Source: an uncultured Gammaproteobacteria bacterium
GTDB lineage: Bacteria; Patescibacteriota; Patescibacteriia; UBA2591; UBA6264
DNA length: 64,000 bases
Assembly (NCBI GenBank): GCA_964596735.1
Contig: CAZQVF010000001.1
Span: 9,924-73,923 of the forward strand
Direction of reading: 5' to 3'
Both the position numbers and the translations under genes were made by a program. This document shows, piece after piece, positions 33,601-50,963 of the stretch. The notes beneath the pieces are model-generated. The model ran no database searches. It was not told the origin of the DNA and saw only the letters and a list, made by a program, of their open reading frames with translations. How positions within the stretch are numbered: the stretch's first letter is position 1; every line of letters starts with the position of its first letter.

Positions 33601-36600
33601 GCTTCTGGTACTCCAGTCAGAGCCGTCAGAGTTGGTATACCTAATTTAAGGGGACAGATAGTTGATCCAGATAGTAATGGAGTAAGAGATTGCTGGGTAA
33701 TGGTTCATGATAATATGTGGATGAATCAGGCCGGGGGCAACACTGATCAAAGCGGATACTTTAACTTGGGTGGATTAGATGATGGTACTTATCAAATTGA
33801 AATAAACATGCCTTGGGGCGGTGATCAGGCCTATACGCAACCCAGTGGCTTAACAGTGGTTATTGCCAATGATATTGCTGTGGTTAAGCAAAATAATGTG
33901 GCTTTGACTAATAACAAGATAACATTAACCACGCCTCAAAAGATCTTAACCGGTTATGTTTATAAAGACACTAATGACAATGGGTCTTATGATATTGGGG
34001 TTGATACAGCAATGGAAAATGTTCGAGTTGAAGGTCATCGAAACATGGGCGGCGGATTTTTTGAGGTTAGAACTAATTCTAGTGGTGAATACACTTTAAA
34101 AATTAGTGGTGGTTCTTGGTGGATTCAGCCAATGCCTGATTGGGGCAATGTCAATGTTGATTGGGTTTATTCTGAACCACCAACCAGAGTTACTTTCCCG
34201 TCAACTACGACTGAAGAATGCAAAGGAACAACAACTCGTTGTACAGCCGCTTCGGCTACGGCTACGGTTATTGATGACGGTCTTGATTTTAAAGTAGATG
34301 TGGCTAATAGTATTTTAACTGGTTATGTTAAATTGCCAGACGGTACGGCCGTGGCCAATACTTGGGTTGATGCGCACAAAGGCATGGGCCCGGGCAATGG
34401 GGCTAATACTGACAGCAATGGCCGGTTTAGCATTAATGTTCCAGCCGGAACATATGAAATAATGGCCATGCCCAATACCCCTGATTATGGCAGTCCAGAT
34501 CCAATTAAAGTAAAAGTAGCCGATGGCCAAACAACAGATGCCGGCACTTTATATTTAAAATCCAGAAGTTCTCACATTAAAGGTTCAGTTACTGATTCAG
34601 CTGGTAATGCTATTGGTAATGTTATGCTTAATGCCTGGCAATTTAATTCTCCTGGCTGGGCAACTGCCTTTACTGATAGTACTACTGGAAGATATGACTT
34701 AACAGTTAGTGATGGAGTTTGGGGTATCATGGTAATGCCCATGAGCGGAAGTTATATTTATCAAGGGGCGCCTTTAAATGTAACTGTTGACGAAAATGAG
34801 ACCTCTGATGCTAATGATTTTGTATTAAAAAATGCAGACACTACTCTTAAGGTTAGTATAGTTAATTCTAGTGGAACTCGAATAACTGATCTTTGGGGAG
34901 GTGTTTGGGTTAAAGATACTTCGGTTGATGATATGATTGATTTTGGCGGGCCAATGGAAGACATGATGATGAAAGGAGACATGATAACTGATACAGGCGG
35001 AATGATAGAAGGAGGTATGGGTTCTGGCGGAGGAGGCGCCATGGGTCCGGGTATGGAACAGGGTGGCTTCCAGGGCGGCGGATTAGTCAATGGTTATACT
35101 GAGATTAAAATTCCTGGTGGCTCTGAGGCAAGCCCTGAACAATATGAGCTTGGTTTGCATACACCACCCGGAGCAACCTATACTTTAAGTGCTACTAAAA
35201 TAGTCGATGTTGTTAGTAGTGTTGATCAAGAAATTGAATTAGTGGTGACTTTAAATGATGTCACCCTTCAAGGCCATTTATATATTGATGCCAATTCTAG
35301 TGGAGGATATGATTCTGGAGAAGAGGCAACAGGTCTTAGAGCCTTTGTTAATGCTCATCGAGCCGAAGGTGGTTGGCAAATGACCGAGACCAACAACGAT
35401 GGTTCTTATAGTATTCTTGTCTCTGCCGGAGAATGGAGACTTGATGCCTGGATTGATGTGTTTATGACTTTTGGGGCAAGTAAATATATGATTGTTAATG
35501 AAGACGTTAAAGATATTGTTAGCGCCGGAGATACAATCACTCGTAATTTTGAAGTTAAAGAATTAGGCTCAAGTATTTCTGGAACAGTGACTGACCCGGA
35601 CGGAGTAGCCATGGATAATGTTTGGATTTTTGTTGATTATGGTACAGAAGAAATGATTTCTGACTTTAAAGGACCGGGCGGTCCTGGAGTAGGAACCTTT
35701 ACTGATATTAGTGGTGATTATACTTTAAATGTGGCGGCCGGAGCCTATAAGGTTGGGGCTGGTATTCCTCCATGGGATACAAGAAATTTAATCAGTCCTG
35801 ATTTGTTAACAGTTACTGTAGCTGATTCAGCTGCTTCTACAGGCAATGATTTACAATTTAAATCATCTGATGCCACAATTGCAGGAACAATTACTTATGA
35901 TGGGGAAAACAAAGCGGCCTTTGTTAGAGCCTGGTCAGATAGCGGTGGCGGCAATGGAACTATTTCCACTGACGGCACTTACAGCTTAAATGTCAGTTCA
36001 GATGATACCTGGCACATTAGCGCCGCAACAGAAATCAGCAATGTATTTTACGAAAGCGCTGAAGCCAGTGTTACTACTGTAGCGGGAACAAATACGCAAA
36101 ATCTAGTTTTAGCCCAAAGTACATTATCTATTCCAGAATCCAAGACAGCCTCATTTGATTCTTCTAATAGTAAAAGTATTATCTTAGGAGATGGTTTAAA
36201 GGTTGATGCACCAGCCGGCAGTATTCAAAGTTCAGGTACGGTGACACTAACGGTTACGCCTAAAACAGATGCTAAGCCAGATTCTAAAGATAAACCAGTT
36301 GGCATTAGTTATGATTTTGTGGCCAAAGATGCCGATGGACAAGCCGTAACCAGTTTTGCCAATGATGTTACGGTCACTATTCCCTATAATGAAGACGTTA
36401 TTACCGCGGCTGGTTATTCTGAGACAGATTTAAGTCCCAAATATTATGATGAAACAACTGGAACCTGGGAGAATTGGAAAGCGGTTGTTCAGGATACAGA
36501 CGCAAATACATTTACCATTACCACAAATCACTTTACGCCAGGCGGTTTGACTGGTGGCCGAGTTACAGCGGCGGCGGTTACTCCTTCTACTCCTAGTAGT

Positions 36601-37560
36601 GGTACGCCAGCCGGAGGGTCAACTGGCAGCATATTATTACCAGAGGGGCCAACCAATGTTTCAGTTTGGATAAATTGGGGAGCAGAAACAACAGTAAACA
36701 GAACCATTACCTTGTCTCTTGGGGCTGATAACGCCACAGAAATGTTAATTAGTAATTCAATTGATTTTGTCGGAGCTACCTGGGAAGAATATAAGACCAG
36801 TAAATACTGGACATTAGAAGCTGGTAATGGTGAGAAAAATGTTTATGTTAAATACCGCGATGAAGACTATAATGACTCTTCTATTGTTTCCGATACCATT
36901 GTTTTAGCAGAGGTGTTGGCTGCAGCCGGAGAAAGAGATTTGGTTAAGACAGCTGATAGTTCAGGAGTATATTTAATCTTAAATGGCAGACGTCATGTGT
37001 TCCCGCATTTAGCTGTTTATACTTCATGGGCTTATCCAGATGATTTCTCAACAGTAAAAACAATATCCAGCGCTGACTTTAATGCTTTTGAAGAAGGCGA
37101 TCCAGTGCCATTTAGAGACGGTTCAATGTTCAGAGGCACAGCCGCTTCCTTACATGGCAAAGCCGCTTCAGCTGTTTTCTATGTTGAAGATGGAAAACTT
37201 AGGCCGGTTAATTCAGGAGAGGTTTATCAGGAATTGTTTAATGATCCAGGCTGGGGTTTGGTTACTTGGGTGCCAGACGATCTTTTGTCCAAGTTTGAAT
37301 ATTCATTAGGGGAAAACCTTGTTTCAAGCGATATTCATCCTAATGGTGCTTTGGTTAAATACGCTGATTCAGCTGCGGTTTATTTGATTGAAAATGGACA
37401 AAAAAGACAATTTACTTCTTGGGATGCTGTGGTAGATAATGGTTATCAAAAGAAAAAGATTCATATTATTCCAGCATCAGAAACCTATGTTACAGCTGAT
37501 TCAATTGGCAGCCTAGCCGAGTCTTTAATCACGCCAGTGATTGCGGCTATGTATCGTTAG
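30622..37560 (+). CDS. Giant (2312 aa) secreted surface protein with at least 11 tandem carboxypeptidase-regulatory-like / Cna-B-type beta-sandwich repeats, a Met/Gly-rich segment and a C-terminal shared module
   Basis: Signal peptide MTKSKRILASIVAVTTVLWSIGPAALA. The repeats have the form [IL]-x-G-[YK]-V-x(5-20)-[AV]-x-V-x-[LA]-H-x(5-12)-T-[DN]-x-[DN]-G-x-[FY] (e.g. LTGYVYKDTNDNGSYDIG...NVRVEGH, GKVMAGGSAVENAWVELHNWGGWYSTNTDADGKFKF). The Met-rich linker is MEDMMMKGDMITDTGGMIEGGMGSGGGG. There is no internal stop over 6.9 kb. Confidence 0.8.
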   Translation: MTKSKRILASIVAVTTVLWSIGPAALALSVTNVAVSPSSIEITFDDAVLSTTLTAAAELGDSTKSAGDLRNYLFKVGDPLVTKNLSRAAPYNMTTEYFAAENKMRIYGIENLYLDSGDDWDFSIPATTIQHATTTDSYVEAYHVTGVIIGVQDPVINYIKNDPTAASPVPASGDCLGYPCGAVGDGLKIFGSNFTTSTVAYIGGATATINAQTATQLDIEIPSDFSSTGDVDVQLYDSNTGRYSISRGIVVYDSDVGVVVGYLTLSDETTGVDNAEITVDQPSYWGSGGTAYTHANGYYAVSVTTAGTYEARFNTPPGISESAPSKVSNLSVTLGAITSVGAKVCGTPTISGYVCAPGSSPCQGVEGVNVSVYTYDWTVEQTTMTNPDGSWSVYIDNTGSWINVGVDTNPSYYHTNVLGYFSSLRGLYDQTLSSGATVADLEVYLTQYNVGGTVKTPAGDTSEANPVPNTVAPNANVQLRTEDWSYEQWTNTDDNGVFKFGGVPAGSTYILEIEPPYSGNFSAYARTRIEDLVVGSSAIGWDAGTEITDLNQDAKATSGALRFGQPNVWGKVMAGGSAVENAWVELHNWGGWYSTNTDADGKFKFDAAIGTYELEVNPPSDSSYSRRRFENIQITSATSNDLAAQADAIDEVDDDAFTLAAPNVSGYVYGPTGTTGQANVGMDLCPYNSPGMCYWAMTNNAGLFGLGGVPDGTWRVEIRPDTWSTIYVAPVSQILVISGGSPTTLDGTAISGNLIFRLVDPSEGGLKGKVCAPGDTSSCEHPQANVGVNLRPQNAMEGFRWGQTDSNGEFAFGAVVAGVYDLEVEPWGSSAYSRQTYTVTVNSDDSVTVGSTEYSTRNIVLYLSSPNIAGYLYTPRFAAGHTSTSNPTPDQPIQWAWVNLHQEGPMMGPGGWYGASTDENGYFNFGGVQPGSNYVLEAEAQWGGAYTRKRYSNIIFTDTNSDGVADECSVGITDDGDAEDGSCDLSTLLGTAVASGTPVRAVRVGIPNLRGQIVDPDSNGVRDCWVMVHDNMWMNQAGGNTDQSGYFNLGGLDDGTYQIEINMPWGGDQAYTQPSGLTVVIANDIAVVKQNNVALTNNKITLTTPQKILTGYVYKDTNDNGSYDIGVDTAMENVRVEGHRNMGGGFFEVRTNSSGEYTLKISGGSWWIQPMPDWGNVNVDWVYSEPPTRVTFPSTTTEECKGTTTRCTAASATATVIDDGLDFKVDVANSILTGYVKLPDGTAVANTWVDAHKGMGPGNGANTDSNGRFSINVPAGTYEIMAMPNTPDYGSPDPIKVKVADGQTTDAGTLYLKSRSSHIKGSVTDSAGNAIGNVMLNAWQFNSPGWATAFTDSTTGRYDLTVSDGVWGIMVMPMSGSYIYQGAPLNVTVDENETSDANDFVLKNADTTLKVSIVNSSGTRITDLWGGVWVKDTSVDDMIDFGGPMEDMMMKGDMITDTGGMIEGGMGSGGGGAMGPGMEQGGFQGGGLVNGYTEIKIPGGSEASPEQYELGLHTPPGATYTLSATKIVDVVSSVDQEIELVVTLNDVTLQGHLYIDANSSGGYDSGEEATGLRAFVNAHRAEGGWQMTETNNDGSYSILVSAGEWRLDAWIDVFMTFGASKYMIVNEDVKDIVSAGDTITRNFEVKELGSSISGTVTDPDGVAMDNVWIFVDYGTEEMISDFKGPGGPGVGTFTDISGDYTLNVAAGAYKVGAGIPPWDTRNLISPDLLTVTVADSAASTGNDLQFKSSDATIAGTITYDGENKAAFVRAWSDSGGGNGTISTDGTYSLNVSSDDTWHISAATEISNVFYESAEASVTTVAGTNTQNLVLAQSTLSIPESKTASFDSSNSKSIILGDGLKVDAPAGSIQSSGTVTLTVTPKTDAKPDSKDKPVGISYDFVAKDADGQAVTSFANDVTVTIPYNEDVITAAGYSETDLSPKYYDETTGTWENWKAVVQDTDANTFTITTNHFTPGGLTGGRVTAAAVTPSTPSSGTPAGGSTGSILLPEGPTNVSVWINWGAETTVNRTITLSLGADNATEMLISNSIDFVGATWEEYKTSKYWTLEAGNGEKNVYVKYRDEDYNDSSIVSDTIVLAEVLAAAGERDLVKTADSSGVYLILNGRRHVFPHLAVYTSWAYPDDFSTVKTISSADFNAFEEGDPVPFRDGSMFRGTAASLHGKAASAVFYVEDGKLRPVNSGEVYQELFNDPGWGLVTWVPDDLLSKFEYSLGENLVSSDIHPNGALVKYADSAAVYLIENGQKRQFTSWDAVVDNGYQKKKIHIIPASETYVTADSIGSLAESLITPVIAAMYR

Positions 37561-39462: not shown

Positions 39463-42400
39463 ATGAACAAACTTAAGAAATTGATTGCTTTAGGAACTAC
39501 CGTTTCAATGCTCTTGAGCTTAGTAGCAGTTTTACCTGCCAGCGCTATAACAATTGCTGATGGCGATTTAGTTAAAACCGCTGACAGTTCAGCTGTTTAC
39601 TATATTCAAGGAGCAAACAAACGTGTATTCCCACATTATAACGTTTATCTTTCTTGGGGCTATGCGGCAGACTTTTCAACAGTAAAAACAGTTAGTTCTT
39701 CAGAATTAGCTGCTTATGCTGATGCAAATGCCATGCCTTTCCGTGATGGTGCGCTATTTCGCGGAACAGCTGCCAGTTTAGGTGACAAAGACGCAACTGC
39801 GGTTTTCTATGTTGAAAACGCAATATTGCGCCCAGTTTTGTCAGAACAGGTCTATCAGGCTTTGTTCAGTGACTTAAGCTGGTCAAAGGTTACTTGGGTA
39901 CCAGATGATCTGTTGGTTAAGTTCAACTATGACATGGGCTCAGACCTTAGTTCATCTGCAACTCATCCTGATGGCGTTATCTTCAAATATTCTGGTTTAG
40001 ACCAGAAATATGTTGTTGAAAGTGGTAAAAAGCGCGCTATTTCAGACGCCGCTTTTGCTGCTAATCGCTACAGAGAAGCAGACGTTCTAACCCTTGATGT
40101 TAGTGAAACCTATGCTGATGGTTCAAGTGTCACTGGCGTTGAATCAGGATTATTAACTCCTGGTTGGCTTGGTGTTGTTGCTGAAGCAGCTGCTTTAACA
40201 GCGAGTTTATATAACACTCCAGCTGGAGGCACTGTTCCAGGCAACGCTAGTAATGTTTCTCTTCTCAGATTTAAACTAACGGCTGGTTCTTCAGCCGCTG
40301 CTGTTGATGGCTTAACCTTTAAAAGAACAAGCTTTGGAGAAACTACTGACTGGGATGCCCTTTATGTTTATGAAGGGAATGATTGTCTTACTCCAACTGG
40401 TAGAAGTTTAAGTTCAGATGATCACACCGTGGAATTTACTGCTTTAGGTCTTTCAGTTCCAGCGAATAGTTCTAAAATAATTGAACTACGTGGTGACATG
40501 ACTACCGCCGACAGCAATAGCAGTGCCTTTCAGTTAATCGCAGTTGAAAGTGCGGCTACTGTTAGTGGATTACCACTCACTGGTAATGTTATGGTTGTTG
40601 CCGCGGTTGATGTAACCACCGCTGCTCTTACTGATGGAACAGCTCCAATTAACCCTGCTGTTGGTGCCCAGAATGTGGAAATCGCTGCCTTTAAAATTCA
40701 GGCTAATGGCAATAATGATCTTACCTTTAGTCAGGCAGTGTTTACCTTTACTGGAACCATGTCAAGAAGTGACATCACCAATATAAATCTTTATTTACTT
40801 GGTGAAACTACTTCTTTAGCTAGCGCCGCTAGTATTGATTCTAATGATACCTTTACTATGACGCTTGCTTCTCCTTATGTCATTACCAAAGGTCAGACCA
40901 AAAACTTCTTATTAAAAGCTGATTTAGCTGGTGAAGTTGGTCGAACCTTGAAAATGTATATTGAGGAAACCTATCACTTAGCCGTTAGCGACAACCAGTA
41001 TAACTATGGAGCCAATGTTACCAATGGCTTTGATACTGGCGATGCCGCTACCTTGACCCTAGAGGGTGGTGAGATTACCATGACCGATAATGGTCCTGTT
41101 GCTGACGAGATTTCTCAAAATCAGCAAGATGTAGTTTTAACAAAAATTGCTGTAACCTCTAGTAGAGCCGTTGAGGTTCGCAAATTCTATGTCACTCTTG
41201 CTAGTGATGTTGCCGGAGGAGCAAATGATGCAGATGATATTACTGACTTAAGAATCAAAGACGAAGACACTGGTCAAACATTAATGACTACCAGTGCAAT
41301 AGGAACAACTATTGCTGGTAATTATTTAATGACTGGTACGTTTAATTTAACCGAAGACGTTACCCGTAATTTAATTATTACAGTTGACATTGGCGTTGAT
41401 GCAGACGACAGTCTTAGTGGTAAATATGTTTCTGGTGACCTAAAAGTAGTCGACAGAAGTGATGATTCAGTTGCTACTGGCGCTGCTTCAGAAGAAGCAC
41501 AAATAAGAGACGTGTCTACCGGTGATTGGGTTCTTACCGCTGATATCATTCCAATTACTATTAGTGGTGAAAATCAAACTGTTCAAGCACCTGCTTTAAC
41601 CATGGCTGAAGCTTCAACTCCAGTTAGTGGTTTAACAGTTGTTAAGGGAGCAGATAAAGTTGATGGTATTGGTATTGTATTTACAGCTGGCGATGCTTCT
41701 GCTATTAATATTAGGCAGTTTGCCGCTCGCGTTTATGTAAATACAGCCGCTACCTTCTTGGCCGCTGGTGAAGACTCTTCACCACAAGGCGAAGTAACCA
41801 CTGCTTATCTTTATGATGACAGTACTTTATTGTCTTCAAAGACTATTTCTGCTACTAGTGCTACCCATGATTACGGAGCAGTTACTTTTGACGGCCTTGA
41901 CGTTGATGTTTCTGCCGGTAGTACTAAAAAGTTAGTAATTAAGTATGATGTTAGCGATAGTTTAGCGGCTACCAGGTATGTAGCAGTTGGTATTTTAGAC
42001 TCAACTGTTACTGCTTATGACAGTCAAGGTGATGCAGTTACTGTCACTGATGATAGCGTTAACTATTACACTGACGATACAAGTGTACCAGATCACTATA
42101 AAACCCTTAGCACAGCTGGTTCATTAACTATGGCCCAAGATTCAGCAACACCTGATGCAGCAATTGTTTTAGCTGGAACAAGTAATGTTGAATTCTCTAA
42201 GATTAAGTTTACGGCTACCAATGAAAGTTGGACCATTAATAAACTTAGAGTAAAGATCGGTACCACAGCTAATGAAAGCAGTGTTTCCTCTGTCAAAATT
42301 ACCTACGAAGATACTACTAAGACAGGTTATTTGGCAAGTGGTTATGTTAACTTTACTAACTTAAATTGGGTTATTGGACAAGACAGTGAAGAGATTTTAA

Positions 42401-43200
42401 CCATTTCTGGTGATTTATCTGCAATAGATTCCAACATTGCCACCACCGGGCGTGAAATCAAACTTGGTATTGATGAAGACGAGGGCTTTGAAGCCGTTGG
42501 CGAATCATCTTCCACCACTACTGATTTAGCACTTGGTGATGTTGATGCCTGGGGCAATATTATGTATCTACGAAAGAGCATGCCAGCTCTAACCTCAGCT
42601 ACTGCCGACACAGCTTTAATTGCTAAATCAAATGCCATCATCCACTCCTTTACAGCGACCGCTTATTCAGCTGGTCCAATTACTGTAAAGAAGTTTAAGT
42701 GGGATGTTAATGTTGGTGATATTGACGGCGGAGGTGAATTAAAAGTGGATACCTGGAAGATCTACAAAAGCGGTAGCAGTACTGCTCTTGGTGGTCTTTG
42801 GTCTAATGGGACAACTACCAGTACAACCGGTGTTACTCCTCAACTTACAAATGGTTCTGGATACATACTTGTTGAACTTGATAGTGAAGTTGAAGTTGGC
42901 GCTGGAGAATCCAAGACCTTTACCTTGAAAGCAAGAGTTCAGGGTGTGGAAGAAAATGACAGTCTTGGTATTACCTTAGATTCTGATGGAGATACGACTA
43001 ATTTAACTGGTGGTTTAGCTAACCATGACACTGAAGGAGCTCGGCTTGATGATGGGACAACTGAATCAGCTGCTGAATTCCTATGGTCTGATAAGGCTCG
43101 TGGTGTGAATCACGCTGCAACAATGCAGAGCACTTATCTTGACTGGTCAAATGGTTACTTACTCAGTACCTTCCCACTTTCTAACACCCTGTCACAGTAA
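39463..43200 (+). CDS. Large (1245 aa) secreted Thr/Ser/Ala-rich surface protein with the N-terminal shared module
   Basis: Signal peptide MNKLKKLIALGTTVSMLLSLVAVLPASA. Residues about 30-200 are homologous to the C-terminus of the giant protein (DLVKTADSSAVYYIQGANKRVFPH...FRGTAASLGDKDATAVFYVEN...VTWVPDDLLVKF). The rest is beta-rich low-complexity Ig-like repeats. Confidence 0.75.
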   Translation: MNKLKKLIALGTTVSMLLSLVAVLPASAITIADGDLVKTADSSAVYYIQGANKRVFPHYNVYLSWGYAADFSTVKTVSSSELAAYADANAMPFRDGALFRGTAASLGDKDATAVFYVENAILRPVLSEQVYQALFSDLSWSKVTWVPDDLLVKFNYDMGSDLSSSATHPDGVIFKYSGLDQKYVVESGKKRAISDAAFAANRYREADVLTLDVSETYADGSSVTGVESGLLTPGWLGVVAEAAALTASLYNTPAGGTVPGNASNVSLLRFKLTAGSSAAAVDGLTFKRTSFGETTDWDALYVYEGNDCLTPTGRSLSSDDHTVEFTALGLSVPANSSKIIELRGDMTTADSNSSAFQLIAVESAATVSGLPLTGNVMVVAAVDVTTAALTDGTAPINPAVGAQNVEIAAFKIQANGNNDLTFSQAVFTFTGTMSRSDITNINLYLLGETTSLASAASIDSNDTFTMTLASPYVITKGQTKNFLLKADLAGEVGRTLKMYIEETYHLAVSDNQYNYGANVTNGFDTGDAATLTLEGGEITMTDNGPVADEISQNQQDVVLTKIAVTSSRAVEVRKFYVTLASDVAGGANDADDITDLRIKDEDTGQTLMTTSAIGTTIAGNYLMTGTFNLTEDVTRNLIITVDIGVDADDSLSGKYVSGDLKVVDRSDDSVATGAASEEAQIRDVSTGDWVLTADIIPITISGENQTVQAPALTMAEASTPVSGLTVVKGADKVDGIGIVFTAGDASAINIRQFAARVYVNTAATFLAAGEDSSPQGEVTTAYLYDDSTLLSSKTISATSATHDYGAVTFDGLDVDVSAGSTKKLVIKYDVSDSLAATRYVAVGILDSTVTAYDSQGDAVTVTDDSVNYYTDDTSVPDHYKTLSTAGSLTMAQDSATPDAAIVLAGTSNVEFSKIKFTATNESWTINKLRVKIGTTANESSVSSVKITYEDTTKTGYLASGYVNFTNLNWVIGQDSEEILTISGDLSAIDSNIATTGREIKLGIDEDEGFEAVGESSSTTTDLALGDVDAWGNIMYLRKSMPALTSATADTALIAKSNAIIHSFTATAYSAGPITVKKFKWDVNVGDIDGGGELKVDTWKIYKSGSSTALGGLWSNGTTTSTTGVTPQLTNGSGYILVELDSEVEVGAGESKTFTLKARVQGVEENDSLGITLDSDGDTTNLTGGLANHDTEGARLDDGTTESAAEFLWSDKARGVNHAATMQSTYLDWSNGYLLSTFPLSNTLSQ

Positions 43201-43333: not shown

Positions 43334-44746
43334 ATGAAAATAAACAAAGCAATAACAATTCTGATTATTAGCTTTTTTGTTATCCCCTTGTTCCCCAGGG
43401 TAGCTTTGGCATTGGCTGCACCAATTGAACAGGATTATAAATGTTATACTTTTCGTTCCTCAGGCTCATGTGATAGGGATTACAGCACGGTTGATTATGA
43501 AGATAATAAGATTTTTTTAAGAGAACAAGAAACTGGTGTTTGCTGGACTAGAGAGATTCGTTTTCGAGAGTATATTTATTCTTTAATTCCTAGCGGTGTA
43601 TATTCTACACCAAATGGAACTCAAGTGAGGCCTTCTGTTAGCTTTGAAGATGAAATTCAAGTACATTCATTAAATTGGAATGTTAAATATAAGCCGGAAG
43701 GGCTGTATAAAAAGTTGCGTTTAAAGATATTTTTAATGACTGATAATCCAGATGTTTCACCTAATGTTGAAGAGATTTGCTTAAACCTTGAATTACAAGA
43801 TCGTTCTGAAAGAGGACTTAAAAAAAGAGACGATACTAGAGTTTCTGAATTAGAAAAAACGAAAAGAGTTTTAAGTAATTATTATAATGATTTCAGCAAT
43901 TACCCTGTCGTTAATGCCAATGTAAGTGACAAAGACAGACAATGGGCGTTATTTGAAAATATTTTAGAATCAGCTTCACTTAGCCGCCGGGAAAACTATA
44001 CCCGGGGCTTGGTTGATCAGCCTCAGGGAGTTGATGACGAGTATAAATATGGGTATTTAGCCAACAACTCAGGGGCATATTATTTACTCTGGACTAAATT
44101 AGAAAATGTTAATTCAGAGCATTTCCAAGATTCTTGGCAGGGACAAATATTAGACGTGGATTGCACCCCACCTACTTATTGTATTTATTCAAAATCTGAT
44201 TATGTGGCCGAACCTCTTTTGCAATATTTTGATCGAGAAAAAAGAACAAGCCAAATTGAACAGGCTGAATTTATTAAAACAGATAATAATCCTCAAGTAT
44301 GGCTTAAGTTAAATGATTATCGTTTTTGGTTAAGAACCCCTGATGTTTTTACTCGAGCCGGTGGTGATTGGGATAATATTTCTTTAGCTTCGAGCTTGGG
44401 AGACGTTCCTTTATTGAAACTTGTTAAAAAACAAGATGAGCCAGAGGTCTATCTTGTTACTGCCTCAGGGTTTAAAAGACATATGCCTAACAGTCAAATT
44501 CTTCATTATTACGGACAGGCCGAAGAGGTTGTTAGTTTTGAAGATACAAAAGTAATTGATCTTTTGCCTGAAAATTATTTAATTAGAGGCAGGGGACAAA
44601 CCAAAGTCTATTTTCTTGATCAAAAGATAAAGAGATGGATTACCTCACCAGAGGTATTAGAAAAACTAGGTTTTGACTGGTTAGACGTGGTGGTGGTAGA
44701 GCCTGAAGAAGTTGATTATTATGCTGAAGGAGCACCGATTTTTTAA
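43334..44746 (+). CDS. Secreted hypothetical protein (470 aa) with C-terminal repeats of the shared module motif
   Basis: A signal peptide/TM (ILIISFFVIPLFPRVALALA). The C-terminus carries two repeats: KLVKKQDEPEVYLVTASGFKRHMPNSQ and IRGRGQTKVYFLDQKIKRWITSPEV. Confidence 0.6.
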   Translation: MKINKAITILIISFFVIPLFPRVALALAAPIEQDYKCYTFRSSGSCDRDYSTVDYEDNKIFLREQETGVCWTREIRFREYIYSLIPSGVYSTPNGTQVRPSVSFEDEIQVHSLNWNVKYKPEGLYKKLRLKIFLMTDNPDVSPNVEEICLNLELQDRSERGLKKRDDTRVSELEKTKRVLSNYYNDFSNYPVVNANVSDKDRQWALFENILESASLSRRENYTRGLVDQPQGVDDEYKYGYLANNSGAYYLLWTKLENVNSEHFQDSWQGQILDVDCTPPTYCIYSKSDYVAEPLLQYFDREKRTSQIEQAEFIKTDNNPQVWLKLNDYRFWLRTPDVFTRAGGDWDNISLASSLGDVPLLKLVKKQDEPEVYLVTASGFKRHMPNSQILHYYGQAEEVVSFEDTKVIDLLPENYLIRGRGQTKVYFLDQKIKRWITSPEVLEKLGFDWLDVVVVEPEEVDYYAEGAPIF

Positions 44747-45049: not shown

Positions 45050-45125
45050 TGGGGTGGCCTAGGGGAATTGCACCCCTACTGAGAACTCCACAGGTTCCCG
45101 TGCTAACTGTTACACCAAGGCCACC
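45050..45125 (-). tRNA. tRNA-His (anticodon GTG) with an encoded G-1 and CCA
   Basis: Reverse-complement fold: extra 5' G(-1) opposite discriminator C73 (the bacterial tRNA-His hallmark), acceptor GUGGCCU/AGGCCAC, D-arm GUGU/GCAC, anticodon stem GGAAC/GUUCU with loop CUGUGGA, T-arm AGGGG-UGCAAUU-CCCCU, CCA encoded. An imperfect hairpin at 45017-45046 may terminate it. Confidence 0.85.
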
Positions 45126-46903: not shown

Positions 46904-47170
46904 TTAAGAATATAAATTACTATGACTATCTACGACAACGAAAATACATTCTTCTTCACTAATAAATTTATAAATAGCCCTTAAATCTCCTGTTATGTTA
47001 ATACTCCGATAGTCAGTATATCTTCCTTTTAAGGAATGGTTATTAAGCTGAGCGTTAAACGGGTTTTTTAAAAATAATTCTAATCTTTCCCGCACTTTTT
47101 TTTGTTCTCTCTTTTTTAGTTTTTTATACTGTTTCTCAAAATTTTTGTGAAAACGAATATTCATAAGCAA
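46904..47170 (-). CDS. relE: Type II toxin, RelE/ParE (YoeB/Txe-like) family
   Basis: An 88-aa protein. YKKLKKREQKKVRERLELFLKNPF ... LKGRYTDYRSINITGDLRAIYKF ... VVVDSHSNLY matches the RelE-fold toxin pattern. Its start is a TTG at 47170 or an ATG at 47164, and the gene lies downstream of the antitoxin gene. Confidence 0.7.
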   Translation of the reverse strand: MLMNIRFHKNFEKQYKKLKKREQKKVRERLELFLKNPFNAQLNNHSLKGRYTDYRSINITGDLRAIYKFISEEECIFVVVDSHSNLYS

Positions 47171-47237
47171 AGCTTGAAATTTCTTCAGGACTCACAAATG
47201 TAAAAGTAAATTTTTCCATTTGATTCGCCCATTGAAA

Positions 47238-47513
47238 CTATAAAGAGGTAAAATGTTTCTTAATCTCTTTGTTAGAAGAAAAAATGCGGGAAATATTTCT
47301 ATTCCTCTGAATATCAAACTCTATTTTACCTAAAAGACTTTCCAGTTCCGGAGACATTTTAGGAGTAATAGTAAAATATACTTCTTTATTTCTGACAAAC
47401 TGCTTTAAGTAAGCATTAATTATTGCGCTTAAAGAAAAGCCCATTTCCTTGGCAAGTTTCTGGGCATGAATTTTCACATTTTTCTCGGTTTTAATATTGA
47501 TTACTGTTTTCAT
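47238..47513 (-). CDS. Type II antitoxin, DinJ/RelB family (ribbon-helix-helix)
   Basis: MKTVINIKTEKNVKIHAQKLAKEMGFSLSAIINAYLKQFVRNKEVYFTIT is a DinJ-like N-terminal RHH. The start is taken as the ATG at 47513; the ORF track extends to a TTG at 47549. It lies 60-70 nt upstream of relE. Confidence 0.65.
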   Translation of the reverse strand: MKTVINIKTEKNVKIHAQKLAKEMGFSLSAIINAYLKQFVRNKEVYFTITPKMSPELESLLGKIEFDIQRNRNISRIFSSNKEIKKHFTSL

Positions 47514-47666
47514 ACATCTAAAGTATATACAATGGTTAGTAGATGTCAAGAGGGAATTGTGGAAAACTTTAATAGGCTTCGTTGGTTTAATTTTAAATGG
47601 TACCCAAGCATTTCAAAACGATGTATTGAAAGGTATTTTTGCAATAACAAAAATAATTTACCATTT

Positions 47667-48386
47667 TTATAATCGAAGAGGATTACCATCATTATCTATT
47701 AAGTCATAAAAGGTCTTATTGTGATCAAATTTATGTTTTATCCAGTTCTTTAAGTCATCCGAAACTGGCTCGCTATTCCAAATGGTAATCGTATAATTTG
47801 GTTTTTGAATAAGGAGCTGTAATTCTGAATATGAAGATTTCAAATAACAAGCCCTGAGGGAAACAGTGATCGTGCCGTCAATTTTTTTGATTATGCCTAT
47901 CATTTGATTAATCATATTTTTCGTGTATTTTGTATTTGGTAAATATGCTGTTGTCCAGCCGATTGAAAGGATCCCCTCAGGATAGTGTTTTTTACAAAGA
48001 TCAATAAATTCCATTGCTCGAAATTTAGGAATCTTGCCACCTGGTCCTTGCAAAATATCTGCATGAAGAAAGATCGGATTTTTCAGATTCGCTTTTTGTA
48101 ATTTTTTAAGGCAAAGGAGAACCACTGATGATTCCCTGAAATCCAGTTTTGCCCCTTTTTTTGAATCAGCTATTTTTTCAATCCAAACGTCAAAAGTCAA
48201 ATCAATTTCTTGGTTTGAGTCATGAGCTATGACAACGGTTTTCCCTTTCAGACAAATATCGCTTTCAATTACCATAATTTGTGGAGAATTACAGTATTTT
48301 TCTAGTTTTTGGAAACGATTTACCGCGTGTGCCCACCTTATATCCCACGGACATTCCACTTTAAAAAAAGATAATAAATTTTTCAT
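47667..48386 (-). CDS. Menorin/FAM151 (DUF2181)-like, PLC/GDPD-like phosphodiesterase-fold protein (tentative)
   Basis: The N-terminus has W-A-H-A-V-N (DIRWAHAVNRFQKLE), the family hallmark as I recall it. There is an internal VVIAHDSNQEIDLTFDVWIE. It is 239 aa and is the last gene of a three-gene minus-strand operon. Confidence 0.45.
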   Translation of the reverse strand: MKNLLSFFKVECPWDIRWAHAVNRFQKLEKYCNSPQIMVIESDICLKGKTVVIAHDSNQEIDLTFDVWIEKIADSKKGAKLDFRESSVVLLCLKKLQKANLKNPIFLHADILQGPGGKIPKFRAMEFIDLCKKHYPEGILSIGWTTAYLPNTKYTKNMINQMIGIIKKIDGTITVSLRACYLKSSYSELQLLIQKPNYTITIWNSEPVSDDLKNWIKHKFDHNKTFYDLIDNDGNPLRL

Positions 48387-48388
48387 TA

Positions 48389-49291
48389 TTATTTTCCACT
48401 AAAAATTTCTTCTGATACTTGATATTCCTTTCCTCTGTAGCTAAACGTAACCCTATTTCCTTTTACTACGACTTTGCCGGATTCTGGTTGCTGTATTGGT
48501 TCAGATCCAAATAGCCTTTCAAATGCTTTCGCATTCACTTTTCCATTGTTGGCAAGATATACAGCCAAGGCATCAAGTTGCCATCCGTGCCCTACAAATC
48601 CTATACTAACAGACCTTTGACTTATCATGCTTTGAGCAAACTCTTTTAGTCTTTGAATGCCTAATAGGTGTTTTTCGGCTGTTTGTTGTGGGCTCGGTAC
48701 TTGGAATATTTTATCCCCGCTTACCAGTTTGCCTTCATTTCGGAACCATTCTAAAACGGCTTTATTCTCATTATTACCAACTTGTTTTAACAACCTTTTC
48801 ATGTAAGGGGTATGTTCGCCCGTATCTTTGTCGCGATGATGAGGCCTTAAGCTGAATTCTTTTAGAAATAATGGGTATGTAAAAACTAATTTTTGATCGG
48901 GATTGCCTTCTATGGCTTGCCTTATTTTATCCAAAACTTTGCCGCCTTTTTCTTTCACCTCGTTTCGCCAATTATCTATATCTTTTTTAGTAAAAATATT
49001 AATACTTCCATCCTCTTGATATTTATTAGACAGTTCATCGCCTATTACTTCAGTGGTGGCCTTTGTTCTTTTTTCCTCGGATGAACCGCCTACGAAGAGT
49101 ATGCCATCCTTATCCATACTATCAACTATTTCTCCAAATTTATGATCAGCCATTTCTCGTGCTTTTCTTTCTCCCTTTTTGGTTATAGATGGATAACGCT
49201 CCGATATTTTTTCCGCATCTTCAGGCGAATAGCCCATGCTTCTATCGGCACGTTCAGTGTGTCTGGTAAAAATTGTGTTTTCAGATTTCAT
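48389..49291 (-). CDS. Histidine-phosphatase-superfamily-like protein (RHxE ... GHG motifs), function unknown
   Basis: FTRHTERAD (RHG-like motif) lies near the N-terminus and IGFVGHGWQLDAL (the second catalytic His motif) near the C-terminus. It is 300 aa. The call is motif-based only. Confidence 0.45.
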   Translation of the reverse strand: MKSENTIFTRHTERADRSMGYSPEDAEKISERYPSITKKGERKAREMADHKFGEIVDSMDKDGILFVGGSSEEKRTKATTEVIGDELSNKYQEDGSINIFTKKDIDNWRNEVKEKGGKVLDKIRQAIEGNPDQKLVFTYPLFLKEFSLRPHHRDKDTGEHTPYMKRLLKQVGNNENKAVLEWFRNEGKLVSGDKIFQVPSPQQTAEKHLLGIQRLKEFAQSMISQRSVSIGFVGHGWQLDALAVYLANNGKVNAKAFERLFGSEPIQQPESGKVVVKGNRVTFSYRGKEYQVSEEIFSGK

Positions 49292-49309
49292 AATTATAGC
49301 TTATAAATT

Positions 49310-50665
49310 TTAAGTTTTTATTTTTGATATGATTCCATTGTTTGCATTAACTTCTACAAAATCTCCGTCTTTAAAAATACGGGTAGCGTGTTTTGTGCCG
49401 ACTATGCACGGCAAGCCGATCTCCCTGCTAATTATTGCCGCATGCGAAGTTATACCCCCCATATCAGTAACAATTGCCGCAGCTCTATAGGTGGCCGGCA
49501 CAAAATCAGGTGTTGTTTCAGAGGCGATCATGACGTCTCCCTTATTTACTTTATCTGTTTCATGCGGCGATAAAACAATCTTAGCGGTCCCTTTTATCCT
49601 TCCTGGATTAGCAACAGTACCTTTTACTTGCGATTTTTGAGACACGCTTTCCAATGCGGAATTTATACTTTTTATTAATTCTTCACCGGTTAAAATTATA
49701 ATTTTCCCTCTTTTTATTATCAAACCAAAAGCTTTTCTCCGCCTTTTTAAGATCTGTCTGGAAGGGATTATTTTACCTTGCAAACCATTTAAAAACTCTT
49801 GAGGCGAAAGCCATCCTGCCAGGTCGTATTTAAGCCCCATACCCCTAGAACCTTCTTCAAATTTGCTCAAAGCTATATAACTTACTACTCCGCAAATTTC
49901 CGCTATATAGTTACGCCAGTAGGAAAGTTCCTGCGTCTGTTTTTGTAGCCAATCTAGATCTCTTGGTAATTTGATTGTGTTTTTCTTCACTTTATCTCTG
50001 GTAATGGAAATATTCTTTAATTGTTCTAAAAATTTTTTTTCTGAGAACGGCTCTCCCCACATGTGCATCATTCCGAACCATTTATATTTTGAAATATGCT
50101 TATTTATTCTTTTATATATGTTCGGATAACGAAGCCTTAAAAATTCAAAAATTTGTTTAGTGGAAAATTTTTTTATCTTGTCCAGTATTTTATTTTTAAC
50201 TAATTCTTTCTTGATAATAACTATGTCTCTTTTTTGTTGCATCAACAAAGAGGGTTTTTGGGGTGTTAAAAATAACTGTAAATAGTCTTCTGGCAAATTA
50301 CGAGTCGTTAGTTCTTCTTTAATAATTTTTTCCAATTTATCGTTCATCGGCAGGACAAAAAACCAAGGATATTCCATTTGATTCATTGCCTGGAAAAATT
50401 CATTAAAGTCGCCGGCTCTCAAACCTTTGCTTTGCTTCAGCTTTTTAACTACCATAAGCATCTTGCTGATTTTAGCTTCCATTAGTTGAAAAATGGCCTT
50501 AAATGATTTTTCATCTTTTTCTTTGACAATTTTCTGCGTCCACTTTTCTATTGTCTCCCAATCTTTTCTATAAAGAAGAAGGTATCCGTCCAATAACAAA
50601 AGTCTTCCGTCTAATTTAGGCAAGCCATATTTTTCACCAGCTTGATTATCGGCCCACTTCTGCAA
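49310..50665 (-). CDS. Orphan PEP-utilizing-enzyme mobile (phosphohistidine swivel) domain protein with a novel helical N-terminal region
   Basis: The C-terminal 90 aa read GTAKIVLSPHETDKVNKGDVMIASETTPDFVPATYRAAAIVTDMGGITSHAAIISREIGLPCIVG. This is the PPDK/PEP-synthase/rifampin-phosphotransferase swivel domain, with the catalytic His in TSHAAI. No ATP-grasp or PEP-binding domain is present in this protein or its neighbours. Confidence 0.65.
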   Translation of the reverse strand: MQKWADNQAGEKYGLPKLDGRLLLLDGYLLLYRKDWETIEKWTQKIVKEKDEKSFKAIFQLMEAKISKMLMVVKKLKQSKGLRAGDFNEFFQAMNQMEYPWFFVLPMNDKLEKIIKEELTTRNLPEDYLQLFLTPQKPSLLMQQKRDIVIIKKELVKNKILDKIKKFSTKQIFEFLRLRYPNIYKRINKHISKYKWFGMMHMWGEPFSEKKFLEQLKNISITRDKVKKNTIKLPRDLDWLQKQTQELSYWRNYIAEICGVVSYIALSKFEEGSRGMGLKYDLAGWLSPQEFLNGLQGKIIPSRQILKRRRKAFGLIIKRGKIIILTGEELIKSINSALESVSQKSQVKGTVANPGRIKGTAKIVLSPHETDKVNKGDVMIASETTPDFVPATYRAAAIVTDMGGITSHAAIISREIGLPCIVGTKHATRIFKDGDFVEVNANNGIISKIKT

Positions 50666-50888
50666 AAGCCAATTATATATTAGGGGTGTTTTATACTGAC
50701 CAAGATATGTGTAATTTTTTTATCAAGATTTCTAGACATAGCAATATTTATAATAAGTCGTTTTCGGAGCGATAACGGAGAAAATATCTTGCTTTTCTCT
50801 CTCTAAAAAAACAAAAAATAAATTTCTAATTTTTTACAAAAATGTGATTCGAGCCGATGTTTTTATATATTCTCTGACATTTTCTCGG

Positions 50889-50963
50889 TGGTACCCCCAA
50901 GAGGAGTCGAACCTCTATCTAGAGATTAGAAGTCTCTCGTTCTATCCGTTGAACTATGGGGGC
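50889..50963 (-). tRNA. tRNA-Arg (anticodon TCT)
   Basis: Reverse-complement fold: acceptor GCCCCCA/UGGGGGU, D-arm GUUC-AACGGAUA-GAAC, anticodon stem AGAGA/UCUCU with loop CUUCUAA, T-arm AGAGG-UUCGACU-CCUCU, discriminator A plus CCA. Its 5' end abuts the htpX stop codon. Confidence 0.85.

What the first reader, a model, noticed from the sequence alone, without database searches (positions are those of the whole stretch)
47667..50665. Three-gene minus-strand operon of unknown function: orphan phosphohistidine swivel-domain protein, histidine-phosphatase-like protein and Menorin/PLC-like phosphodiesterase
The genes are tightly spaced, with gaps of 18 and 2 nt. The first protein has a bona fide PEP-utilizing mobile domain, with catalytic His in GGITSHAAI. 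It lacks the ATP-grasp and PEP-binding domains that normally flank it. It carries instead a roughly 330-aa novel helical N-terminal region. The partners have the motifs of a His-phosphatase fold (RHxE ... GHG) and a WAHAVN Menorin-like phosphodiesterase fold. Together these suggest a self-contained phospho-transfer/hydrolysis module acting on an unknown substrate, such as a nucleotide, lipid headgroup or small molecule. The location supports an accessory role, possibly defence or antibiotic modification by analogy with rifampin phosphotransferase-type swivel enzymes. The operon sits next to a RelE/DinJ pair, between two tRNA genes and beside a tyrosine recombinase.
Basis: partly seen in the sequence, partly recalled or inferred. 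Interest (0 to 1): 0.72.

Follow-up and report, generated by a model that had tools for sequence, protein, structure and literature searches.

The report
Split dikinase subunit with phosphatase partner
This is half of a split, rifampin-phosphotransferase-type kinase, paired as in about 40 related ultra-small bacteria with an unannotated histidine-phosphatase-fold enzyme; the third gene (Menorin) joined only in this species, and nothing points to a defence role.

Summary
The three minus-strand ORFs, their 18- and 2-nt gaps and all quoted motifs are real. Gene A (451 aa as called) is not an orphan with a novel N-terminus. It has the substrate-binding domain plus phospho-His swivel of RPH/PpsA/HpeH-type ATP-dependent small-molecule dikinases and lacks the ATP-grasp subunit. 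Gene B (300 aa, no Pfam or NCBIfam hit) folds as a histidine phosphatase with an invariant R10-H11-R75-H235 core. Its family covers about 240 clusters at 50% identity, and the named members are Patescibacteria. In 40 non-redundant B loci, 33 have a swivel-domain or PPDK_N gene directly adjacent. Six of the other seven lie at contig edges. PPDK_N is present or fused in 14 loci, and up to 8 swivel paralogs share one B. Menorin (gene C) is adjacent only in this species. The 64-kb window has no ATP-grasp gene. Gene A also has a 5' frameshift at an A7 run, so the true ATG is at 50739. There are no PADLOC hits, viral relatives or island boundaries, and relatives sit among housekeeping genes. Best reading: a conserved kinase-phosphatase module acting on an unknown small molecule. 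This is a new variant of a known enzyme class. The defence interpretation is unsupported.

The parts
49310..50739 (-). Gene A: the acceptor subunit of a split dikinase. It has a helical substrate-binding domain (aa 1-~335 of the called ORF) followed by a phospho-His swivel domain. The called ORF is 49310-50665 (TTG start, 451 aa). The ancestral ATG at 50739 is out of frame by one base.
50715..50721 (-). A7 homopolymer at the 5' end of gene A. An eighth A, or a -1 slip, would join MSRNLDKK to NYTYLGQYKTPLIYNWLLQKW and give a 476-aa protein like the closest homolog, P0002.
   Evidence: Read directly from the sequence. The tblastn alignment of the L057 ortholog reaches window position 50719.
49334..49546 (-). 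PEP-utilizers mobile (swivel) domain, aa 374-444. The catalytic His408 codon is at 49442-49444, within TDMGGITSHAAI.
   Evidence: Pfam PF00391, E 7e-24. H408, G403 and G404 are invariant. The best PDB sequence hits are PEP synthase swivel domains.
48389..49291 (-). Gene B: a histidine-phosphatase-superfamily enzyme from an unannotated family. The catalytic core is R10, H11 (codon 49259-49261), R75, E145 and H235, and there is a large helical cap insertion.
47667..48386 (-). [quoted passage not shown] H20, E41, D43, H55, K80 and D82 are conserved. It is a species-specific addition to the A-B pair.
   Evidence: Pfam PF10223, E 5e-50. Alignment A3. Contexts of homologs elsewhere. Absent from the other 39 B loci.
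46904..47549 (-). Downstream RelB/DinJ-like antitoxin (47238-47549) and YafQ/RelE-family toxin (46904-47170). These are neighbours, not part of the conserved module.
   Evidence: Not found next to A-B in any relative outside this species.
50889..50963 (-). tRNA-Arg(TCT), upstream of gene A. There is no att-like direct repeat of its 3' end in the region.

Best explanation
Genes A and B form a conserved two-gene module of Patescibacteria. A is the acceptor subunit of a split (two-component) ATP-dependent small-molecule dikinase of the rifampin phosphotransferase / PpsA / HpeH type. By inference from that enzyme class, a separately encoded PPDK_N ATP-grasp subunit phosphorylates His408 on A's swivel domain. 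The swivel domain then delivers the phosphate to a hydroxyl-bearing small molecule held by A's helical N-terminal domain. That domain is highly variable between paralogs. B is a catalytically intact histidine-phosphatase-fold enzyme dedicated to this system. It most likely hydrolyses the phosphomonoester made by the kinase, or a downstream intermediate, in a phosphorylate-transform-dephosphorylate or homeostatic logic. Less likely, it resets the phospho-His. Gene C (Menorin) joined the operon only in this species. It probably cleaves a phosphodiester to give a phosphomonoester that B can hydrolyse. What is shown: the domain and fold identities, the catalytic residues, the gene linkage and the lack of Menorin conservation. 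What is inferred: the direction of phosphate flow, the use of an ATP-grasp encoded in trans, B's substrate and the identity of the small molecule. In this species gene A also needs slippage at an A7 run, or a restart at TTG, to be made. The ATP-grasp gene is not within the 64 kb window.
Against: No PPDK_N gene is in the window or within 8-10 kb in the closest relatives (L005, L011, L012, L030, L032), so charging by an ATP-grasp is unproven for this clade. A kinase next to a phosphatase for the same compound looks futile unless another step or regulation intervenes. One B serves arrays of 3-8 divergent A paralogs, and B-adjacent A genes fall in many sequence clusters. B also follows PPDK_N-swivel fusions that lack A residues 1-235. 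These three points fit a role on the shared swivel or ATP-grasp part better than a product-specific phosphatase. Gene A is frameshifted at its 5' end in this species and may be inactive here. No substrate is identified.
Confidence: 0.5

Rival explanations
1. Regulatory phosphorelay. A and its paralogs are charged on the swivel His and act mainly as phospho-carriers or regulators, like the PPDK-derived M. tuberculosis VadK. B is a SixA-like phosphohistidine phosphatase, or a His-to-His phospho-acceptor or transferase. It acts on the shared swivel domain and so serves all paralogs.
Against: B carries a helical cap of roughly 120 residues, and its best matches are cap-bearing small-molecule phosphatases (MINPP, phytase, PhoE) rather than the capless SixA. 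A's large, divergent N-terminal domain implies small-molecule binding. There is no direct evidence of an A-B interaction.
Confidence: 0.2
2. One reading: an accessory defence or antibiotic-inactivation module. It would be an RPH-like kinase that inactivates a toxic small molecule, carried on a mobile or defence island.
For: A is homologous to RPH. Highly diversified substrate-binding domains in tandem arrays resemble arms-race diversification. A toxin-antitoxin pair lies next to the operon. PMC12167813 notes that some members of the RPH family act on antibiotics.
Against: There are no PADLOC hits for A, B or C. B has no relatives in 2.9 million viral contigs. No att repeats or GC shift mark an island. 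The recombinase is XerC/D/XerA-type, in conserved synteny with htpX, rpsO and pnp. In relatives the pair sits among ftsK, rpoBC, smpB, ftsH, recJ, gltX and mreB-type genes. This idea gives no role to a dedicated phosphatase, which would undo an inactivating phosphorylation.
Confidence: 0.1
3. Flavin metabolism. The A ortholog group would be a non-canonical riboflavin (or flavin-precursor) kinase. The partner histidine phosphatase would be the ARAPDP or FMN phosphatase.
Against: This rests on a single locus. No rib genes occur in the window or in the other roughly 45 loci. No FMN riboswitch is present. The L057 phosphatase is not a B-family member (hhalign probability 51%). The nucleotidyltransferase is only generically classified.
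Confidence: 0.08
4. The local copy is decaying. In this species gene A is a recently inactivated gene, with a 5' frameshift and no ATP-grasp partner, and the three-gene arrangement has no joint function.
For: The A7 frameshift removes the family-type start, and a restart at TTG would lose about 25 residues that include the conserved YxG(R/Q)(W/Y)xxPL motif. There is no PPDK_N in 64 kb. Menorin adjacency is unique to this species.
Against: The remaining 451 codons are open and 73% identical to the nearest homolog. All catalytic and invariant residues are intact. The same sequence is fixed in at least four assemblies from different samples. A-runs can be rescued by transcriptional or ribosomal slippage, which is general knowledge and was not tested here. 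B and C are intact.
Confidence: 0.12

Closest known systems
Two-component small-molecule dikinases HpeHI, CreHI and PpsAB (phenylphosphate synthase), PMC12167813
   Same: The architecture is split in the same way: one subunit carries the RPH-like substrate-binding domain plus the C-terminal His swivel (HpeH, PpsA), and a separate subunit of about 310-360 aa is the ATP-grasp (HpeI, PpsB). The swivel motif T/SxxGGxxxH is conserved. Standalone PPDK_N genes sit in related clusters.
   Different: A is about 450-480 aa, against about 600-640 aa for HpeH and PpsA. Its swivel domain keeps the PEP-synthase-like GGxTSH. Its N-terminal domain shows no detectable sequence similarity to the aromatic kinases in the NCBIfam PRK08296 models beyond the swivel region. 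The hosts are Patescibacteria and DPANN archaea, not degraders of aromatic compounds. A dedicated histidine-phosphatase-fold partner (B) has not been described for those systems. The window has no ATP-grasp gene.
Rifampin phosphotransferase (RPH, PDB 5HV1/5FBS), PMC4844700
   Different: RPH is a single polypeptide of about 865 aa with an N-terminal ATP-grasp. A scores 70 bits against the equivalog cutoff of 999. Only the C-terminal roughly 100 residues of the RIF-binding domain are alignable by sequence.
PEP synthase / pyruvate phosphate dikinase
   Same: These give the best sequence matches for the swivel domain (8a8e, E 7e-27). The standalone PPDK_N genes of related loci best match the PEP synthase N-terminus.
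   Different: A has no PEP/pyruvate-binding TIM barrel (PF02896) and no ATP-grasp. Its scores are far below the equivalog cutoffs (117 against 598).
VadK (Rv1127c), a PPDK-derived autophosphorylating His kinase, PMC13400623
   Same: It is a dikinase-derived protein that lacks the PEP-binding domain. It resembles the L017-type PPDK_N-swivel fusions that precede B in 7 loci.
   Different: VadK contains its own ATP-grasp and A does not. No phosphatase partner has been described for it. Its lineage is actinobacterial.
Histidine phosphatase superfamily (PhoE, SixA, MINPP/phytases, RosC, Aquifex riboflavin HFP)
   Same: B shares the fold and the catalytic R-H...R...(E)...H constellation. Precedents exist both for small-molecule phosphatases and for a phosphohistidine phosphatase (SixA).
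   Different: B matches no Pfam or NCBIfam model, and sequence identity to solved members is 10-21%. It has its own conserved motifs (PLFLKEFS, GHGWQLDALAVYLANNG). It is almost obligately linked to dikinase genes.
Menorin / FAM151 (PF10223, DUF2181), PMC6965129
   Same: C is a full-length member (E 5e-50). The His/Glu/Asp/His positions expected of a PLC-like phosphodiesterase are conserved.
   Different: C is a bacterial, cytoplasmic-looking, single-domain protein of 239 aa. The substrate of the whole family is unknown. Bacterial homologs sit beside other phosphoesterases: PHP in L025 and GDPD in L027.

Membership tests
PEP-utilizers mobile (swivel) domain, PF00391 | Profile score above the gathering threshold, with the phospho-carrier His in the T/SxxGGxxxH loop | tested here: met
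   83.6 bits against a cutoff of 23.1. T400..G403 G404..H408 are present, and H408 is invariant in 54 homologs.
PEP synthase / PPDK (pyruvate, water or phosphate dikinase) | N-terminal ATP-grasp (PF01326) and C-terminal PEP/pyruvate-binding TIM barrel (PF02896) in the same protein, with an equivalog-level score | tested here: not met
   Only PF00391 is found. NF005057 scores 116.9 bits against a cutoff of 598, and TIGR01418 scores 105 against 739.75.
RPH-type small-molecule dikinases (including the two-component subfamily HpeHI/CreHI/PpsAB) | A helical acceptor-binding domain homologous to the RIF-binding domain, directly N-terminal to the swivel domain | tested here: met
RPH-type small-molecule dikinases (including the two-component subfamily HpeHI/CreHI/PpsAB) | A cognate ATP-grasp (PPDK_N) domain or subunit that charges the swivel His | tested here: inconclusive
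   Absent from the 64-kb window (tblastn) and from the flanks of the closest relatives. Present as a separate gene or a fusion in 14 of 40 related B loci. The rest of this genome could not be searched.
RPH-type small-molecule dikinases (including the two-component subfamily HpeHI/CreHI/PpsAB) | ATP -> AMP + Pi + phosphorylated acceptor (dikinase chemistry) | not testable with these tools
   This needs biochemistry.
Histidine phosphatase superfamily | The alpha/beta fold, with a nucleophilic His in an N-terminal RH motif, two further Arg/His phosphate ligands and an acidic proton donor | tested here: met
Histidine phosphatase superfamily | Match to a curated family model (PF00300 His_Phos_1, PF00328 His_Phos_2 or an NCBIfam model) | tested here: not met
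   No hit at E <= 0.1 in Pfam or NCBIfam and no PDB sequence hit. It is therefore an unmodelled family, with 238 representative clusters.
Menorin / DUF2181 (PLC-like phosphodiesterase superfamily) | Full-length profile match above the gathering score, with conserved catalytic His/Glu/Asp/His positions | tested here: met
   170.6 bits against a cutoff of 25, covering profile positions 4-239 of 242. H20 and D43 are invariant, and E41 and H55 are conserved in at least 90% of sequences. Mapping these positions to the active site relies on PMC6965129 and was not checked structurally here.
Known anti-phage defence systems (PADLOC) | Any component matching a defence-system model, or residence in a defence or mobile island | tested here: not met
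   No PADLOC hits. B is absent from viral contigs. No att-like repeats. Relatives sit in housekeeping neighbourhoods.
Conserved three-gene operon (A-B-Menorin) | Co-occurrence of all three genes in other genomes | tested here: not met
   Menorin is adjacent in 1 of 40 non-redundant B loci. None of the three Menorin homolog contexts examined contains A or B.

The most novel reading that the evidence does not exclude
B would not be a product phosphatase. It would be a third catalytic component of a new three-part dikinase system in Patescibacteria. One ATP-grasp subunit and one histidine-phosphatase-fold subunit would serve a whole battery of interchangeable acceptor/swivel subunits. B would either take the phosphate from the swivel phospho-His onto its own His11 (a His-to-His relay feeding a phosphotransferase or mutase reaction) or process the pyrophosphoryl-His intermediate. 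The diversified A paralogs would then let organisms with minimal genomes phosphorylate many scavenged metabolites, possibly including flavins, with one energy-coupling module.
Probability: 0.15. Interest if true: 0.75.

Novelty: new variant of a known kind. Interest (0 to 1): 0.45.

Why it matters
Patescibacteria and DPANN archaea have tiny genomes. Some nevertheless devote up to about 12 kb to tandem arrays of these swivel-domain proteins, and no curated model (Pfam, NCBIfam) or literature search here assigned them a substrate. Three things make the system testable. The proteins can be recognised as acceptor subunits of split RPH/PpsA-type dikinases. A previously unmodelled histidine phosphatase family is almost obligately linked to them. 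One ATP-grasp gene and one phosphatase gene appear per array of paralogs. Together these give a concrete three-protein system to reconstitute. It could reveal how ultra-small symbionts activate or salvage metabolites, and it would extend the two-component dikinase subfamily beyond aromatic catabolism. For this particular window the practical message is more modest: the 'trio' and the 'defence' reading should not be propagated.

Tried and rejected
(1) Truncated PPDK or PEP synthase pseudogene. Rejected: there are many full-length homologs of about 470 aa with conserved N-terminal domains.

(2) Novel N-terminal fold. Rejected.

(3) Conserved trio. Rejected by 40 loci and by the contexts of Menorin homologs.

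(4) Defence island. PADLOC, PHROGs (only a weak 'kinase' hit through the swivel domain), the viral contig scan, repeats and composition were all negative.

(5) ATP-grasp hidden in the window. tblastn with a Patescibacteria PPDK_N gave only noise hits, the best at E 0.42.

(6) Riboswitch clue to the ligand. There are no Rfam hits other than tRNA and tmRNA in the window or in 10 related loci.

(7) The 315-aa gene after the A paralog P0058 (L028) as a hidden B. hhalign probability was 0.2%.

(8) The B fusion protein P0266 as a Rosetta stone to A. Its C-terminal half is unrelated to A and has no Pfam hit.

(9) A PDB relative for Menorin by profile search. None was found.

(10) Promoter and terminator scan. 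The counts are at the chance level, so it gives no operon evidence beyond the short gaps.

(11) The afdb50 fold library was unavailable.

(12) Literature search for swivel-domain proteins in Patescibacteria or DPANN. Among 15 listed of 697 matching papers, none mentioned 'swiveling domain' or 'PEP-utilizing'.
Full report
OBSERVATION

The three minus-strand ORFs exist exactly as described: A at 49310-50665 (451 aa, TTG start), B at 48389-49291 (300 aa) and C at 47667-48386 (239 aa), separated by 18 and 2 nt. They lie between tRNA-Arg(TCT) at 50889-50963 and tRNA-His at 45050-45124. Downstream are a RelB/DinJ-like antitoxin, a YafQ/RelE-type toxin, a WG-repeat protein and metK. Upstream are htpX and a tyrosine recombinase. 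Four independent metagenome assemblies contain the identical arrangement.

GENE A

Pfam finds only the PEP-utilizers mobile domain (aa 374-444, E 7e-24). There is no ATP-grasp (PF01326) and no PEP-binding barrel. NCBIfam and PDB sequence searches hit only through the swivel region, far below every equivalog cutoff.

The N-terminal 330 residues are helical (AF2 pLDDT 93.9) but not novel.
- More than 2000 homologs were scored. Full-length ones of about 470 aa come from Patescibacteria and from DPANN archaea (Nano-, Woese- and Micrarchaeota).
- A residues 20-449 align with residues 366-780 of P0107, a 780-aa protein whose first ~315 residues are a PPDK_N ATP-grasp (E 2e-49).
- The family profile aligns with rifampin phosphotransferase residues 657-882.

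A therefore corresponds to the 'substrate-binding + swivel' half of RPH-type dikinases. This architecture is already known as a separate subunit in HpeH, CreH and PpsA, which work with a separate ATP-grasp subunit (PMC12167813). The swivel loop T400-D-M-G-G-I-T-S-H408 fits the T/SxxGGxxxH signature described in that paper. H408 is invariant in the family.

A 5' FRAMESHIFT IN GENE A

Homologs start M-x5-K-x4-Y-x-G-(R/Q)-(W/Y)-x-x-P-L. In the window this motif (KNYTYLGQYKTPLIYNWL) is encoded in frame immediately upstream of the called TTG start, directly after a TAA. A family-type start (ATG 50739, MSRNLDKK) lies one base out of frame across an A7 run at 50715-50721.

One extra A, or a -1 slip, would give a 476-aa protein colinear with the closest homolog P0002 (476 aa, 73% identity). 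The A7 state is identical in four assemblies. A tblastn alignment of an ortholog runs up to window position 50719. So in this species A is either expressed through slippage, made as an N-terminally truncated protein, or recently inactivated. The remaining 451 codons are intact.

GENE B

B has no Pfam, NCBIfam, PADLOC or PDB sequence hit. Thirty homologs share invariant R10, H11, R75 and H235 and near-invariant E145. They also share family-specific motifs (PLFLKEFS, GHGWQLDALAVYLANNG).

B is therefore a catalytically intact member of an unmodelled branch of this superfamily, with a large helical cap. A profile search of 1.84 billion representative proteins finds only 238 clusters (145 at E <= 1e-30), nearly all 260-350 aa.

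GENE C

C is a full-length Menorin/DUF2181 protein (E 5e-50). H20, E41, D43, H55, K80 and D82 are conserved. These are the positions expected of a PLC-like phosphodiesterase according to PMC6965129. The substrate of this family is unknown.

CONSERVATION OF THE ARRANGEMENT

I collected B loci through exact-protein look-ups, a scan of GTDB species genomes and a scan of JGI metagenomes. I then mapped A, B, C and PPDK_N on them. Among 40 non-redundant B loci:
- 33 have a swivel-domain gene or a PPDK_N gene directly adjacent.
- Six of the other seven have B within 274 nt of a contig end.
- Only L022 is a true exception.
- PPDK_N is present in 14 loci. It occurs as a standalone gene of 311-320 aa (about 57-67% identical to the L010 reference copy used as query) or fused to a swivel module (the L017-type 681-aa protein in 7 loci, and a 1508-aa ORF in L016 with PPDK_N plus three swivel modules).
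- Five loci carry arrays of 3-8 swivel paralogs with one B, and three of these also show one PPDK_N.
- Within arrays the swivel domains stay about 49% identical while the N-terminal domains fall to about 17%. This is the pattern expected if the N-terminal domain sets substrate specificity.
- Menorin is adjacent only in the window species. Relatives with 74% (L030) and 68% (L011, L012) identical B have a methyltransferase or unrelated genes there instead.
- Menorin homologs elsewhere sit next to a PHP phosphoesterase (L025), or next to GDPD inside an ABC-transporter/PfkB/DeoR operon (L027). None is near A or B.

A PAIRING BEYOND THE B FAMILY

An A ortholog (44-48% identity over its full length to the window clade) in the probably archaeal contig L057 overlaps by 4 nt a different, Pfam-recognisable His_Phos_1 gene. 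The pair lies between archaeal riboflavin synthase, lumazine synthase, RibD and GTP cyclohydrolase II on one side and a 151-aa nucleotidyltransferase on the other. In L011 a second A paralog is preceded by a 297-aa protein with weak histidine phosphatase similarity. Coupling of an A-type subunit to a histidine-phosphatase-fold enzyme is thus a recurrent theme.

WHAT IS MISSING LOCALLY

No PPDK_N gene exists in the 64-kb window or within 8-10 kb of A-B in the closest relatives. The rest of the genome could not be read with the tools available.

DEFENCE OR ISLAND HYPOTHESIS

The checks were all negative:
- No PADLOC hits.
- PHROGs gives only a weak generic 'kinase' hit through the swivel domain.
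- No B relative in IMG/VR.
- No att-like repeat of the tRNA 3' ends.
- GC content is uniform across the region.
- The recombinase scores as XerC/XerD/XerA-type. It sits in a block with vanZ, rpsO, a NYN gene and pnp that is identical across the assemblies of this species.

In other genomes A-B lies between ftsK and rpoC, between smpB and ftsH, or next to recJ, rmuC, gltX, a DHH phosphoesterase or a glycogen-synthase-like gene. No riboswitch or other cis-RNA gives a ligand clue. Promoter and terminator scans are at the chance level.

MECHANISM

Shown: the fold and family of each protein, intact catalytic residues, tight A-B linkage, frequent linkage to and fusion with an ATP-grasp, and diversification of the acceptor domain.

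Inferred, from the established mechanism of RPH, PpsAB and HpeHI (PMC4844700, PMC12167813): the ATP-grasp subunit phosphorylates His408, the swivel carries the phosphate to the N-terminal domain, and a hydroxyl-bearing small molecule is phosphorylated.

B's role is the least certain point. Its cap domain and its best structural matches favour a small-molecule phosphomonoesterase acting on the kinase product or on a later intermediate. The Hpe pathway is a known example in which a phosphorylated intermediate is dephosphorylated after carboxylation. However, B is single-copy beside many paralogs, B-adjacent A genes do not form one orthologous group, and B sits after PPDK_N-swivel fusions that lack A residues 1-235. 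These points fit a role on the shared swivel or ATP-grasp machinery: a SixA-like phosphohistidine phosphatase or a His-to-His acceptor. I rate the product-phosphatase model at about 0.5 and the phosphorelay model at about 0.2.

Menorin most plausibly supplies a phosphomonoester to B by cleaving a phosphodiester. Its bacterial homologs keep company with other phosphoesterases, but this is inference only.

NOVELTY AND VERDICT

The enzyme class (two-component RPH-type dikinase) is known. Three features were not matched by the curated models or the literature searches run here: its wide expansion in Patescibacteria and DPANN, its near-obligate pairing with a previously unmodelled histidine phosphatase family, and the layout of one ATP-grasp and one phosphatase for many acceptors. 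I class this as a new variant of a known kind.

The 'self-contained trio' and 'defence' readings are not supported. The local copy is also atypical: it has a 5' frameshift, no ATP-grasp nearby and a species-specific Menorin. Interest is moderate (0.45).

Noticed in passing
window 50715-50739 (minus strand): The 5' end of gene A is frameshifted at an A7 run. The family-type ATG at 50739 and the conserved N-terminal motif are in different frames, and the sequence is identical in four assemblies. This could be slippage-dependent expression or early gene decay.
   Followed up: partly
L016 3297-7823: A single 1508-aa ORF fuses a PPDK_N ATP-grasp to three successive swivel-domain modules (Pfam reports 3 PF00391 stretches). 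It is a natural poly-dikinase fusion next to B.
   Followed up: partly
L048 500-16500: Eight swivel-domain genes, one B gene and one PPDK_N gene lie within about 16 kb of a Patescibacteria-like contig. That is a large investment for a small genome.
   Followed up: partly
L057 3668-9980: An ortholog of A overlaps by 4 nt a His_Phos_1 gene. The pair lies between ribC(arch)/ribH/ribD/GTP cyclohydrolase II and a 151-aa adenylyl/cytidylyl-transferase, which is a possible link to flavin metabolism.
   Followed up: partly
L011 8398-9801: A reverse transcriptase (RVT_1) lies next to a bAvd-like gene, about 1.5 kb from the A-B pair of a relative at 68% identity. It looks like a diversity-generating retroelement cassette.
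   Followed up: no
L027 330-7729; L025 6144-7732: Bacterial Menorin homologs sit beside other phosphoesterases. In L027 the gene overlaps a GDPD gene at the end of a DeoR/PfkB/ABC-transporter operon. In L025 it lies 17 nt after a PHP-domain gene.
   Followed up: partly
P0266 (696 aa; no locus): A B-family domain (aa 18-304) is fused to a C-terminal half of about 390 aa with a GQSFG nucleophile-elbow-like motif. That half has no Pfam hit and is unrelated to A.
   Followed up: partly
window 30622-37560, 39463-43200, 43334-44746: There is a 2312-aa ORF in a GC-richer stretch (0.42 against about 0.34). Two further plus-strand ORFs of 1245 and 470 aa have no Pfam hit in the gene tables. They are probably large surface proteins.
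   Followed up: no
L008 4683-5073 and L008/L015 downstream genes: In two distant relatives the B-A pair, here in reversed gene order, lies between smpB/tmRNA and ftsH. This conserved housekeeping neighbourhood differs from the one in the window.
   Followed up: no
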